Origin: a virus
Taxonomy: Duplodnaviria; Heunggongvirae; Uroviricota; Caudoviricetes
Virus record (IMG/VR): IMGVR_UViG_2778261559_000026
Strand: one strand, 5' to 3'
DNA length: 31,691 nucleotides
Shown here: piece by piece, positions 982 to 3,900 of the stretch
Layout: each line of letters starts with the position of its first letter
Numbering within the stretch: the first letter of the stretch is position 1
Position numbers: made by a program

Positions 982-3900
982 GTTAAATAGGCGAGTAATC
1001 TCCTGTTTAGGTTTCACTAATATCATGTACCCACAATAACAAGAGGGGTACAACAATGAACATCGGTAAAGCAATCATCAACTACGCAGCGCGTCGCAAC
1101 ATGGACATTACCTTGATTGACGATGAGACCGTGGCGTTCTGGGAAGCGGATAACGATTGTGAATGGATGTTCTCCTACATGATTGGTAATGATGGTTTCC
1201 TCCACTTTAAAGGCAATGTGTATCTGCCGCAGGATATTAAAGAAGAATTACCAGCGTGCATCGATACAGACAAGAAGCTGAAAGAAGTAATCAACTTTAT
1301 CGCTAAAGAGTTTATCAGCAAGAAGTAATGTCTAATTTGGCGGGTACTATTCCCGCCGATTTAAACGGAATACAGACAATGTTCAATATTATGATTCGTA
1401 AATTTGGTGAGATGACTTTCGAGAAAGCTGGTGTTGCTCGTACCGAAGAAGAAGCAATGGCCTTCGTTCTGGTAGCACTGAGATCATCACCTGAGATTAT
1501 CGACGCTGAATATGTTACGGCTGAGGGTGAGATTAAAGAGATTAAAGCGGTGGCTAAGGAATTAGGTGTTAAAGGTTTCCGTAAGCTGAGATTGACCCGT
1601 GAGACTTATGTAATTGGACAGCAAGGACAATACCTAGATGAGAATACCGTGATTGTTCTACTGAATAAGATTACCCGCTACGGTTGGAAGATTGAGCAAT
1701 ATAAAACGTGTTTCGAATTATACGAAAAAGGTTTGCTGGATACTCTGACCATCGTTCGCGCTTAATTAATTTCTAATTTGGTGGGTGTAATTCCCACCGC
1801 TTTTTAAACTGGAGAATCAAACATGTTAGCTTTTATCTCATTCGTGGGAGGTAGTCTCACAACTATGATTAGTCTTTCTTATCTTGTCGTTAGTATGGGG
1901 TGAGCAATGAAACAATTTCATGATGGCATTTCATCTAAGACATTCAAGAAAGAATATTCGCTGAGTATTAACTGGATTGATTTGATTGGTGCGGTTGTGT
2001 TTGGTCTGATTATTAGCATTAACTTTTAACGATATAAATATATCGTAATTCAAACAACAAGAGGAAATTCTACTATGAAAAAGATTATCGCTGGCATCGT
2101 TCTTACTATGGGTTTGGTTGGTACTGCTAATGCTAATACCTATTATGTGTGTAATTCCTACTTCGAACATAAAGGAGATGATACACACTACCTTCGTGAT
2201 GGCGACCGTTATTATCATGCACCGTCTGGCAAATACCGTGGTTTTATCGGTGTGAAAGTTCGCGTGAATGATGATAATAGTCAATTTGCTTTCAACGATC
2301 CGGTATATGATAAGACAATCAAAAGTCCTAAATTAAAAGAAGATAAGAACGAGAAAGAAGAATATTATGGTTCCGAAGATGGTAAATCCTACATCAAGTA
2401 TCTGCATTCTGTTGATGGCGCGCCTATATTTGATGTTAAAAAAGGTGATACGTCTTATTCCCTGATTAGCTGCCGTGAAATTCTTTAATCTTTAATCACC
2501 TAGCCCCTATCGTTATAATACGCGGTAGGGGCGTTTTTGTTTGGAAATGGTATGAAAACTAAACTGTATTCGTATATTCGCTTCTCGTCTATGCGTCAGA
2601 ATGATGGTTCGAGTTATGAACGACAAATCAGGATGGCTAGAGAGATTGCGGTAAAGTATGACCTTGAACTGGTAAATGATTATCAGGATCTGGGTGTATC
2701 TGCGTTTAAGGGTGCTAACTCCAAAACAGGGGCGCTATCTCGTTTCCTTGATGCAATAGGTAGATCCGTTCCTGTTGGTAGCTGGCTATTCATCGAAAAC
2801 TTGGACCGTTTATCCCGTGCCGATATTGTCAGTGCGCAGGAGTTATTCCTTTCAATCATCCGTAGGGGGATAACCATTGTTACTGGCATGGATAACAAGA
2901 TCTACTCGCTGGATACTGTTACCGCTAACCCGATGGACCTGATGTTCTCCATCCTTTTATTCATCCGTGGTAATGAGGAAAGCCAGACTAAGCGCAATCG
3001 TACTAACTCAAGCGCACTGATTAAGATTAAAGCTCATCAAGAAAATCCACAAAATCCGGCTGTTGCAATCGAGGAAATTGGAAAGAATATGTGGTGGACT
3101 GATACCACATCTGGTTATGTGCTTCCTCATCCGGTCTTCTTCCCTATTGTTCAGGAAGTTGTGGAATTACGCAGGAATGGACGGTCAACCTCCGAGATAC
3201 TGGATCACCTTAACGCGACATACACACCACCACCAGCCGCAAGTCACAAGAGGCATTCAAACTGGTCACGGGCAATGATTGAAAGGTTGTTCCATACCCG
3301 CGCTTTGATTGGTATCAAGGAAATCTCTGTAGATGGCGTTAAGTATGAGTTAAAGGATTATTATCCTCGTGTGCTAGATGACGCTGAGTTTTATCACCTT
3401 AAGAAAAGCATTGGTGTTAGAGCATGTAACTTTGGAGACAAAGAAGAAGCTAAACCTATTCCCTTGCTTAGTGGTGCTGGTCTATTGAAATGTGAACATT
3501 GCGGTTCCGCTATGGTTAAGGTGAAAGGAACAAACAGACGGCCTAACCAATATCGTTATTCATGCGATGCAATGCGCTCTAGTCGTATTGAATGTGTGCA
3601 TACAAACTGGAGTTTTCGCGGCGACCAATTAGAGAAAGCTGTATTGCAATTGCTGGCTGATAAAATCTGGATTGCTGAAGATAAGGCTAATCCGGTTCCG
3701 GCTTTGAAAGTACAGATTGATGAAATATCACGCAAGATTGATAACCTGATTACCCTTTCTGCTATGACAGGAGCAACGAAGGAGCTAGCCGATCAGATTA
3801 CTACCCTCAATAGCGAGCGTGAAACACACTTCTGGATTCTGGTTAACCAATTCCACCCATTCGGAACGAGCAATAATACCGAAAGCACAAACGCGGTAAT

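What the first reader, a model, noticed from the sequence alone, without database searches (positions are those of the whole stretch)
1321..1825. Repeated intercistronic hairpin cassette with compensatory base changes
The sequences after the stops of two consecutive left-end genes are near-identical (TAAT-TCTAATTTGG-[C/T]GGGT...ATTCCC[G/A]CC-G-TTT...AAAC-N-ATG). Their C/T and G/A differences keep the stem (GGCGGG/CCCGCC versus GGTGGG/CCCACC), so the structure is under selection, as a modular terminator, attenuator or RNA-processing site that brackets small cargo genes.
Basis: seen in the sequence. Interest (0 to 1): 0.4.

Follow-up and report, generated by a model that had tools for sequence, protein, structure and literature searches.

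The report
Repeated hairpin spacer between prophage genes
Two diverged copies of a short hairpin-forming spacer separate small genes at the left end of an E. coli prophage; the hairpin is real and conserved, it most likely acts as a leaky stop or protective cap on the messenger RNA, it marks places where gene modules are swapped, and overall it is a fairly ordinary kind of phage punctuation.

Summary
Two copies of a 40-nt cassette lie at 1323-1362 and 1764-1803 (80% identical, none expected by chance), each just after a stop codon. The C-G versus T-A difference preserves a 6-bp stem.

The window is E. coli chromosome carrying a whole siphovirus-type prophage in hicB (attL about 1015, attR about 31367). 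The cassettes sit in a plus-strand operon: g1, C1, g2, C2, p3, p4, g5, strong terminator, serine recombinase.

The structure is supported:
- In 25 variants, 99.3% of stem cells pair, and one pair shows all four Watson-Crick types.
- Across 24 haplotypes, 1 of 26 stem and 5'-flank sites varies, against 50 of 128 third-codon sites in g2.

Modularity is supported. Relatives lack C1, lack g2, or carry a joint inside the hairpin.

The same hairpin, GGNGGG-TGNAATT-CCCNCC, recurs in unrelated phage contigs. It is always in sense orientation, 4-27 nt after a stop codon, and follows the major head gene in three lineages. It is near chance frequency in bacterial genomes.

Best reading, inferred and not measured: a leaky intrinsic terminator and 3'-end stabiliser that also serves as a recombination patch. 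It resembles the stem-loop half of T4-type PeSL cassettes but has no promoter. Interest is modest.

The parts
1329..1378 (+). Cassette copy C1: AU-rich leader TCTAATTT, hairpin, TTT, AAAC, then the weak ribosome-binding region of gene 2
   Evidence: covariance-model E = 4.5e-11. Absent from relatives of architecture B.
1339..1357 (+). C1 hairpin GGCGGG-TACTATT-CCCGCC, extendable by T.G and T-A pairs to 1337-1359
   Evidence: The 53-nt context folds at -16.8 kcal/mol, z = -3.6. The core hairpin is -11.3 to -13.5 kcal/mol.
1770..1822 (+). Cassette copy C2: leader TTTCTAATTT, hairpin, GC, TTTTT, AAAC, then Shine-Dalgarno GGAG (1811-1814) of the next gene
   Evidence: E = 6.3e-13. Flagged as terminator-like.
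1780..1798 (+). C2 hairpin GGTGGG-TGTAATT-CCCACC, followed by the U run at 1801-1805
   Evidence: core -9.8 to -11.3 kcal/mol.
1056..1328 (+). Gene g1 (90 aa, phrog_6147, unknown function). Its stop codon lies 10 nt before the C1 stem.
1379..1765 (+). Gene g2 (128 aa, phrog_14908, unknown function), the cargo gene between the two copies. The true start is ATG 1379.
1823..1903 (+). p3, a 26-aa hydrophobic peptide ORF directly downstream of C2. Relatives carry other small hydrophobic ORFs here.
1907..2029 (+). p4, a 40-aa ORF with a hydrophobic C-terminus, conserved in relatives
2075..2488 (+). g5, a 137-aa protein with an N-terminal signal-like sequence. It is the last gene of the operon.
2503..2542 (+). 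Strong canonical intrinsic terminator that ends the operon: 11-bp stem, then GTTTTTGTTT. It serves as an internal yardstick for C1 and C2.
   Evidence: -21.9 kcal/mol, z = -3.8
2552..3949 (+). Large serine recombinase gene (Resolvase, Recombinase and Zn-ribbon domains), truncated here by a deletion of about 5 kb after base 3830
1021..1026 (+). TATCAT, the candidate -10 hexamer of the promoter that would drive the operon, 7 nt inside the prophage left end
   Evidence: It reads TATAAT in L025.
31351..31356 (+). TTGACT, the candidate -35 hexamer at the prophage right end. It lies 17 nt from TATCAT only when the ends are joined in attP.

Best explanation
C1 and C2 are two diverged copies of an intercistronic RNA element that is read in the sense direction of a small operon (g1-g2-p3-p4-g5). 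The operon lies between the phage attachment site and the serine-recombinase gene. Each copy has an AU-rich leader (UCUAAUUU), a G-rich/C-rich stem of 6-8 bp with a 7-nt loop (UGNAAUU type, UACUAUU in C1), and a short U run.

On the RNA the hairpin acts as punctuation. It is a leaky intrinsic terminator or attenuator, and it blocks 3'-to-5' exonucleases, so the upstream cistron is expressed and kept at a higher level than the ones after it. C2 (UUUUU) should act more strongly than C1 (UUU). Full termination is left to the canonical terminator at 2503-2542.

On the DNA the roughly 40 nt shared by the copies, and the microhomology GGGTGNAATTCCC, provide patches where homologous recombination adds, removes or replaces the neighbouring small genes.

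Shown here: the repeat, the conserved and covarying stem, the sense-strand post-stop-codon placement, and the module joints. Inferred: termination or stabilisation, and its strength.
For: Structure:
- Pair 13-27 occurs as G-C 11, U-A 8, C-G 3, A-U 2 and U.G 1.
- The outer pair changes G-C to A-U in L312.
- 99.3% of stem cells pair, and 0 of 500 shuffles reach this.
- In both pattern scans of viral contigs, which left N and N' free, every hit had complementary bases, apart from one U.G in a recombinant.

Constraint: among 24 g2+C2 haplotypes, 0 of 14 leader sites and 1 of 12 stem sites vary. That one variable site occurs only in the recombinant hybrid. In g2, 50 of 128 third-codon sites vary.

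RNA-level, 3'-end-type placement:
- In 19 of 23 phage contexts a same-strand ORF ends 4-27 nt upstream.
- The G-rich arm is always 5' in the sense orientation.
- The distance to the next ORF is variable, or no ORF follows within 400 nt.
- The upstream gene is the major head protein or a virion structural protein in three unrelated lineages, which is a classic attenuator position.

Terminator features: C2 is picked up by the terminator scan (7 pairs, then CTTTTTAAAC). About half of the independent homologues are followed by runs of 5-8 T.

Leakiness: no promoter-like site lies on the plus strand between 800 and 2118. p3-p4-g5 must therefore be read through C2.

Recombination role:
- Architectures A to E.
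- A hybrid cassette occurs where g2 is missing.
- A joint inside the hairpin in L011 and L314 (GGTGGG-TGTAATT-CCCGCC plus a different downstream gene).
- A third cassette in L312.
- Megablast break points fall at window 1367-1379 in 14 genomes and at 1764-1767 in 12 genomes.
Against: - No transcript ends were measured.
- C1 has only three U, and the simple terminator scan does not call it.
- L312, L011 and L314 keep the hairpin with no U run. L017 and L060 place a Shine-Dalgarno sequence directly after it. Termination therefore cannot be the only selected property.
- The strictly conserved AU-rich leader is not a terminator feature.
- Relatives of architecture B do without any hairpin between g1 and g2, so C1 is dispensable.
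- One genome (L001) carries an uncompensated A.C mismatch in C1.
- The low diversity could partly reflect recent spread of the cassette by recombination rather than purifying selection.
Confidence: 0.5

Rival explanations
1. The cassette is an RNA processing site plus a 5' cap for the downstream message. An endonuclease such as RNase E cuts in the conserved AU-rich leader (AA/UUU). The hairpin then sits at the new 5' end and protects, or insulates the translation of, the downstream cistron.
For: The leader TTAATTTCTAATTT is invariant in 24 haplotypes, and T-rich or AT-rich sequence precedes the stem in almost all phage homologues. The hairpin is kept where no U run follows and where the Shine-Dalgarno sequence or start codon follows within 8-10 nt (L312, L314, L017, L060). 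That the leader resembles the RNase E preference for R-N-cut-W-U-U is my own recollection, not a test.
Against: Across phages the hairpin tracks the end of the upstream ORF (4-27 nt), not the start of the next one (12-65 nt, or none within 400 nt). That pattern fits a 3'-end element better. The homologues come from contigs with 25-49% G+C. This spread suggests hosts that may not all have RNase E.
Confidence: 0.17
2. The loop is the point. UGNAAUU closed by G-C forms a T-loop-like fold, and the hairpin is a portable docking module for a conserved host or phage factor, or for another RNA. Termination would be incidental.
For: The same stem type and loop recur in unrelated phage contigs of 25-49% G+C while the stem covaries. 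Within the E. coli family the loop varies mainly at position 3, with one position-7 variant. With the stem fixed and the loop left free, TGNAATT accounts for 8 of 112 contexts in 3-4 independent families, against about 1 in 4096 by chance. GGGUGAAAUUCCC is also the sequence of a hairpin in the FMN riboswitch aptamer, whose peripheral loops make T-loop contacts (PMC3201879).
Against: For GGGGGG/CCCCCC stems the loops are very diverse, with 95 different loops in 110 contexts. TGAAATT is found in only 2 contexts, plus 3 contexts with the reverse-complement loop AATTTCA. C1 itself has a deviant loop, TACTATT. No candidate partner is known. Rfam gives no family.
Confidence: 0.13
3. The cassette has no function of its own. 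It is a leftover 3'-UTR hairpin carried along when gene modules were joined, and the repeat persists only because recombination keeps copying it.
For: C1 is dispensable (architecture B) and occurs in only 19 of 5426 complete E. coli genomes. Hybrids show that recombination reshuffles the cassette. That could also homogenise it and mimic constraint.
Against: Compensated changes occur at two stem positions. The orientation and post-stop placement are strict in 23 contexts. The hairpin recurs after capsid genes in unrelated phages. These points are hard to explain without selection on the RNA.
Confidence: 0.1
4. It is a DNA-level site: a cruciform or single-strand hairpin used by a site-specific recombinase or nuclease (integron attC-like gene cassettes), or a promoter.
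For: Cargo genes flanked by direct repeats, with joints inside the hairpin, recall gene cassettes. A serine recombinase gene, and in some relatives a GIY-YIG nuclease gene, lie nearby.
Against: The strict sense orientation relative to genes argues for RNA. There is no integron integrase and no R''/L''/L'/R' organisation. The serine recombinase's own sites are attL and attR at about 1015 and 31367 and are unrelated in sequence. No promoter hexamer pair was found, and the upstream sequences of the two copies differ where a -35 would lie.
Confidence: 0.05

Closest known systems
PeSL (promoter-early stem-loop) cassettes of T4-type phages (Arbiol et al. 2010, PMC2839356; Comeau et al. 2014, PMC4122927)
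   Same: Both are short repeated intergenic cassettes that run from the stop codon of one small gene of unknown function to the start of the next. Both contain a G-run/C-run stem-loop proposed as a terminator or attenuator. Indels and replacements of the flanking genes map to the cassettes, and crossovers have been located inside the loop (here).
   Different: PeSLs are defined by a strong sigma-70 early promoter, often with the stem-loop between or overlapping the hexamers. The RB49 hairpins inspected here look like TTGAC-GGGGATC-GCGA-GATCCCC-TATACT. The window's cassette has no promoter, has a 7-nt TGNAATT or TACTATT loop, occurs only twice, and sits in a temperate siphovirus-type prophage rather than in the hyperplastic region of a T4-like phage. 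Mini-circles were not tested.
Intrinsic (Rho-independent) terminators and attenuators, including the leaky ones that follow phage major capsid genes
   Same: A GC-rich stem with the G-rich arm 5', a loop of 3-8 nt, a position just after a stop codon in the sense orientation, and a U run (C2 and about half of the homologues).
   Different: C1 and several relatives lack a usable U run. The loop and the 5' leader are conserved, which ordinary terminators do not require. The stems are short (6-8 bp) compared with the operon's own terminator (11 bp).
Intercistronic stabiliser hairpins (REP/BIME-type elements, as in malE-malF), which block 3' exonucleases and set differential expression within an operon. 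This comparison rests on my own knowledge.
   Same: A stable hairpin between cistrons of one operon, with no need for a U run and with a predicted effect on the upstream cistron.
   Different: There is no sequence relation to REP. The cassette is not dispersed in the chromosome: C1 is found only in this prophage context, in 19 of 5426 genomes.
Morons of temperate phages (an extra gene with its own promoter and terminator inserted between conserved genes; Juhala/Hendrix concept, from my own knowledge)
   Same: Small genes of unknown function next to the attachment site, present or absent among otherwise near-identical prophages, each followed by a hairpin.
   Different: No gene-specific promoters were found. 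The genes appear to form one operon driven from a promoter that exists only in the joined attP form, so they may be early genes rather than genes expressed in the lysogen.
T-loop hairpins of the FMN riboswitch aptamer
   Same: The sequence GGGUGAAAUUCCC is identical to that of the phage homologues. The loop fits the pentanucleotide T-loop pattern U-G-N-R-A, which I recall from my own knowledge.
   Different: This is a single isolated hairpin. Rfam finds no riboswitch. The window's own loops are UGUAAUU and UACUAUU.

Membership tests
Intrinsic terminator | GC-rich stem-loop (at least 5 bp, loop of 3-8 nt) on the transcribed strand | tested here: met
   C1 has 6-8 bp and C2 has 6-7 bp, each with a 7-nt loop. 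Core energies are -9.8 to -13.5 kcal/mol.
Intrinsic terminator | A U-rich tract immediately 3' of the stem | tested here: inconclusive
   C2 has G-C then UUUUU and is called by the scan. C1 has G-A then UUU and is not called. Relatives L312 and L314 have no U run.
Intrinsic terminator | Location downstream of a coding region in the sense orientation | tested here: met
   The stems begin 10 and 14 nt after the stop codons in the window. In 19 of 23 phage contexts the distance is 4-27 nt.
Intrinsic terminator | Transcript 3' ends at the U tract | not testable with these tools
   No RNA data are available.
PeSL cassette (T4-type phages) | A sigma-70-consensus early promoter inside the cassette | tested here: not met
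   No promoter-like site overlaps either copy. The sequences where a -35 would lie differ between the copies.
PeSL cassette (T4-type phages) | A stable stem-loop with a G tract followed by a C tract | tested here: met
   The comparison with RB49 hairpins shows a different loop and different context.
PeSL cassette (T4-type phages) | Indels or replacements of flanking ORFans with crossovers in the cassette | tested here: met
PeSL cassette (T4-type phages) | Formation of mini-circles by recombination between flanking cassettes | not testable with these tools
   This needs inverse PCR on infected or induced cells.
Integron attC gene cassette | An imperfect palindrome of 57-141 nt with R''/L''/L'/R' boxes, and an IntI tyrosine integrase nearby | tested here: not met
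   The arms are only 6-8 nt. TTTAAAC does not fit RYYYAAC. The only recombinase is a large serine recombinase.
REP/BIME or other dispersed chromosomal repeats | Many copies dispersed in the host chromosome | tested here: not met
   C1 has one place per genome in 19 of 5426 genomes, always in this prophage. The motif is at about chance frequency in 596 Gb of bacterial genomes.
Any curated RNA family (Rfam 15), including the FMN riboswitch | A score at or near the family gathering threshold | tested here: not met
   The best hits are 15-22 bits against gathering scores of 34-65, and all are unrelated families.
Moron | Own promoter and own terminator flanking a gene that is optional among related phages | tested here: inconclusive
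   The optional-gene and hairpin criteria are met. The own-promoter criterion is not met.

The most novel reading that the evidence does not exclude
GGNGGG-UGNAAUU-CCCNCC may be a distinct, horizontally spread or convergently selected phage RNA module. In this reading it is a T-loop-capped hairpin placed right after stop codons, often after the major head gene, in phages of very different hosts. Its loop would be read by a universal partner such as RNA polymerase with NusA, an exonuclease, the ribosome or a tRNA-handling enzyme. The window's cassettes would be two members of that class. The shared downstream stretch TTTTTAAACTG..AATCAAA..ATG between C2 and unrelated environmental contigs (L038 group) would then reflect lateral transfer of the whole cassette.
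Probability: 0.13. Interest if true: 0.6.

Novelty: new variant of a known kind. Interest (0 to 1): 0.35.

Why it matters
This gives a clean, sequence-level example outside the T4-like phages of a short regulatory hairpin acting as the seam at which small accessory genes are exchanged. The exchange occurs among otherwise 95-100% identical prophages that use three different integration sites. That bears on how temperate phages shuffle the unknown-function genes next to their attachment sites. If the conserved loop turns out to matter, it would define a small portable RNA part shared by phages of unrelated hosts, which could be useful as an insulator or attenuator. If it does not, the element is ordinary transcript punctuation.

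Tried and rejected
- **Rfam.** An E-value search of 900-2700 gave only sub-threshold, unrelated hits.
- **Sigma-70 promoter reading of TCTAAT as a -10.** There is no matching -35, the upstream sequences of the two copies are unrelated, and the scan finds nothing.
- **Coding reading.** ORF 1328-1765 would translate C1, but relatives fix the start at 1379 and the motif occurs in different frames in other phages.
- **H-type pseudoknot between the AAUUU leader and the AAAUU loop.** The segments are complementary, but the connecting loops would be 0 nt, so I judged it sterically impossible. This is reasoning only.
- **PeSL identity.** RB49 stem-loops in 1-50 kb have other loops and are embedded in promoters.
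- **Isolated phage genomes.** Neither the region nor the 62-nt cassette gives a meaningful hit in 50,697 records.
- **Literature search for the hairpin sequence.** It returned only the FMN riboswitch and unrelated primer sequences.
- **d'Aubenton-Carafa-type terminator score.** I wrote the formula from memory. Even the strong terminator scored below zero with modern energy parameters, so I used only the energies and not the scores.
- **CRISPR-repeat, lambda nut and integron attC resemblances.** I compared these by eye and from memory and found no match.
- **Loop dominance.** With GGGGGG/CCCCCC stems the loops are highly diverse. This lowered my estimate that TGNAATT is special.
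Full report
**What is there**

Bases 1323-1362 and 1764-1803 are two copies of one 40-nt sequence, 80% identical and 441 nt apart. The core TCTAATTTGG-YGGG-T...ATT-CCCR-CC occurs twice in the window and never in 100 shuffles. A covariance model built from 25 variants finds only these two sites in the window, at E = 6e-13 and 4.5e-11.

Each copy begins a few bases after a stop codon: TAA 1326-1328 for C1 and TAA 1763-1765 for C2. Each can form a hairpin.
- C1: GGCGGG-TACTATT-CCCGCC, at 1339-1357.
- C2: GGTGGG-TGTAATT-CCCACC, at 1780-1798.

**Genomic setting**

Bases 1-1014 are E. coli ydcR and the 3' part of hicB. The rest of hicB resumes at about 31368. The window therefore holds a complete prophage of about 30.3 kb inserted in hicB.

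The prophage encodes a terminase, portal, head protein, major tail protein, tape measure and J-like tail protein on the minus strand. The left end carries a plus-strand block:
- g1 (1056-1328)
- C1
- g2 (1379-1765)
- C2
- p3 (26 aa, hydrophobic)
- p4 (40 aa)
- g5 (137 aa)
- a strong terminator (2503-2542)
- a large serine recombinase gene

g1 and g2 match only phage families of unknown function.

About 60 complete E. coli genomes carry relatives of this left end. They are integrated in hicB, ycdX or codB, with recombinases 74-100% identical at the nucleotide level over the first 550 nt.

**Copy 1 is intergenic**

The mechanical ORF, and the RefSeq annotation of one relative, start g2 at ATG 1328, which would translate the hairpin. 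Three observations rule this out.
- Many relatives join g1 to g2 by TAA-GGCAGCAAAACA-ATG or TAA-GGGTAGCACT-ATG with no hairpin.
- Others have g2 as the first gene after attL.
- All of them keep the ATG that corresponds to 1379.

**The stem is selected**

I collected every variant returned by two scans of viral contigs in which the fourth stem pair was left free, and added variants found through homology of the flanking genes. In the resulting 25 distinct sequences, 99.3% of stem cells pair.

The free pair occurs as G-C 11, U-A 8, C-G 3, A-U 2 and U.G 1. The outermost pair changes from G-C to A-U in L312. No shuffle of 500 reaches the observed score, and sliding the partner destroys it. The other stem columns were fixed by the search patterns and carry no information.

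The only uncompensated change is an A.C in C1 of one genome.

Within the E. coli prophage family I compared 24 haplotypes of g2 plus C2.
- 50 of 128 third-codon sites vary in g2.
- 0 of 14 sites vary in the leader TTAATTTCTAATTT.
- 1 of 12 stem sites varies, and only in recombinant hybrids.
- 2 of 7 loop sites vary: position 3 in 11 haplotypes (C instead of T) and position 7 in one.

**The cassette is a seam between modules**

Five architectures occur.
- A is the window's arrangement.
- B lacks C1.
- C lacks g2. It has a g1 variant only 74% identical, fused to a hybrid cassette with C1-type upstream sequence and a C2-type body.
- D starts with g2.
- E (L011, L314) reads GGTGGG-TGTAATT-CCCGCC-CTATTCAACC-ATG followed by a different small hydrophobic ORF. 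The joint lies inside the hairpin and leaves a U.G pair.

L312 has a third cassette, TAA-TTAC-AGCGGG-TGCAATT-CCCGCT-TACCCAA-ATG, after yet another gene. In the megablast of 1020-2540, 14 partial matches begin at window 1367-1379 and 12 begin at 1764-1767.

Not every joint is at a cassette. The g5 variants switch after the signal-peptide region, and architecture B joints lie at the bare stop and start codons.

**The hairpin type is not confined to this prophage**

The pattern TAATTTGGNGGGNNNNATTCCCNCC hits 31 viral contigs. Five of them are unrelated, with 25-40% G+C. The pattern TTGGNGGGTGAAATTCCCNCC hits 34 contigs in roughly a dozen different sequence contexts, always with complementary N and N'.

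In 23 contexts the motif is always intergenic and in the sense orientation. In 19 of them a same-strand ORF ends 4-27 nt upstream. The next ORF starts 12-65 nt downstream, or not within 400 nt. The upstream gene is the major head protein in L010 and L037 and a virion structural protein in the L066 group. In L039 and L044 the motif follows the capsid module.

About half of the contexts are followed by 5-8 T. One group of environmental contigs (L038 and related) also shares the downstream stretch TTTTTAAACTG..AATCAAA..ATG with C2.

In 596 Gb of bacterial and archaeal genomes the related pattern gives only 19 hits, against roughly 17 expected by chance. Of these, 9 are Watson-Crick, 5 are wobble and 5 are mismatched at the free pair. 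The motif is therefore characteristic of phages.

**How special is the loop?**

With the stem TTGGTGGG/CCCACC fixed and the loop free, TGNAATT is found in 8 of 112 contexts, representing 3-4 independent families. With GGGGGG/CCCCCC fixed, loops are very diverse: 95 kinds in 110 contexts. TGAAATT occurs twice there, and its reverse complement occurs three times.

With the loop fixed and four stem positions free, two further stems (GGGGCG/CGCCCC and GGGCGG/CCGCCC) pair perfectly.

GGGUGAAAUUCCC is also a hairpin of the FMN riboswitch aptamer, whose peripheral loops make T-loop contacts. The loop fits the T-loop pattern U-G-N-R-A, which I recall from my own knowledge, and the position that varies most often in the E. 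coli family is the N.

I take this as a lead, not a finding. G-run/C-run hairpins after genes are common in phages. This prophage has others at about 19137-19155 and 11900-11925 on the minus strand. TGNAATT is one recurrent variant among many.

**Mechanism**

Three features point to a 3'-end function on the mRNA rather than a DNA site or a 5' element:
- the strict sense orientation;
- the tie to the end of the upstream ORF rather than the start of the next;
- the capsid-gene association.

C2 has the anatomy of a modest intrinsic terminator and is called by the scan. C1 is weaker and is not called. Both are much weaker than the operon's own terminator. The 53-60-nt contexts fold at -16.8 and -12.3 kcal/mol, against -21.9 for the 62-nt terminator context.

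No promoter-like site lies between the left end and 2118 on the plus strand, so p3, p4 and g5 must be read through C2. The hairpins can therefore only be leaky.

I conclude that they are attenuators and 3'-exonuclease barriers that grade expression along the operon. Their shared sequence also serves as a recombination patch, as in the PeSL cassettes of T4-type phages. They lack the promoter that defines a PeSL, and the RB49 stem-loops I inspected are built differently.

Two facts do not fit a pure terminator: the conserved AU-rich leader, and the variants without a U run. They keep a processing-site or stabiliser rival alive.

**Where the operon's promoter is**

The prophage right end reads ...GGGTTGACTACATTCGGGTT and the left end reads CACTAATATCATG. 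Joined in attP they give TTGACT, 17 nt, TATCAT.

The right end is identical in a relative integrated in ycdX. The -10 is kept in the hicB and ycdX types and reads TATAAT in one relative; the codB-type left end also contains TATCAT. In the lysogen the -35 is replaced by hicB DNA.

If this is the promoter, the cassettes act on an early transcript made only from the circular phage. The small genes would then be early functions rather than lysogen-expressed cargo. This is an inference from sequence.

**Verdict**

The feature is real, conserved and modular. Its kind is known, its details (no promoter, conserved leader and loop, temperate phage) make it a variant, and its function is still unmeasured.

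Noticed in passing
window 31351-31356 and 1021-1026 (joined across attP): The prophage right end carries TTGACT and the left end carries TATCAT. The two are 17 nt apart only when the ends are joined, so a good sigma-70 promoter for the g1 to g5 operon would exist in the circular phage and be split by integration. The right end is identical in a ycdX-integrated relative, and the -10 reads TATAAT in L025. The hexamers lie within the imperfect inverted repeat of attP, so the recombinase could also repress the promoter.
   Followed up: partly
window 3830-3834: A deletion of about 5 kb relative to L001, L006 and L020 removes the 3' end of the serine recombinase gene, leaving 470 codons where relatives have about 560. 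It also removes the lysis genes and part of the J-like tail gene. The prophage is therefore probably defective and locked in. IMG/VR contig L024 is identical over the compared 3.5 kb (window 2500-6000), including this deletion joint.
   Followed up: partly
window 1328-1378; L001 3479-3916; L311 2873-3247: Public annotations of g2 use three different start codons. One of them translates the C1 hairpin. Comparison of architectures fixes the start at ATG 1379.
   Followed up: yes
window 1823-1903 and 1907-2029; L312, L313, L314: The position right after C2 always holds a 26-29 aa very hydrophobic ORF, and its sequence is replaced outright in relatives (p3, pX and a third type). It is followed by the conserved 40-aa p4. 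None of these ORFs is annotated. They could be small membrane toxins or exclusion peptides.
   Followed up: no
window 2503-2542: The operon-end terminator has TATAAT in its loop (2514-2519), just upstream of the recombinase start. It may double as the -10 of a weak recombinase promoter.
   Followed up: no
window 19137-19155 and about 11900-11925, minus strand: Two more G-run/C-run hairpins lie in intergenic gaps of the late operon, on the sense strand and without U runs: GGGGGC-GCAAT-GCCCCC between the portal and head genes, and GGGGGG-AACA-CCCCC downstream of the tail-fibre gene (11924-15352). They are the same style of punctuation with different loops.
   Followed up: partly
window 11924-15352, minus strand: A 1142-aa tail fibre protein in this siphovirus-type prophage has a C-terminal part about 80-87% identical in DNA to the long-tail-fibre distal subunit (gp37-like) of T4-like phages. 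This indicates adhesin exchange between temperate and virulent phages.
   Followed up: no
L038, L040, L043, L047, L066 and related IMG/VR contigs: Environmental phage contigs of 43-46% G+C carry GGGGGG-TGAAATT-CCCCCC-TATTTTTAAACTGATAAATCAAAAATTATG after a capsid-like gene. Beyond the hairpin this resembles C2 (GCTTTTTAAACTGGAGAATCAAACATG). The whole cassette, not only the hairpin, may have moved between phages.
   Followed up: partly
L046, L053, L108 group: In this phage group the TGNAATT hairpin follows a 914-aa structural protein and is immediately followed by a second palindrome, CCAGTATATACTGG, and then a T run. This forms a two-hairpin arrangement.
   Followed up: no
L005, L313, L316 (relatives integrated in ycdX): Some relatives carry a GIY-YIG nuclease gene directly downstream of the recombinase gene, on the opposite strand, where others have an unrelated gene.
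   Followed up: no
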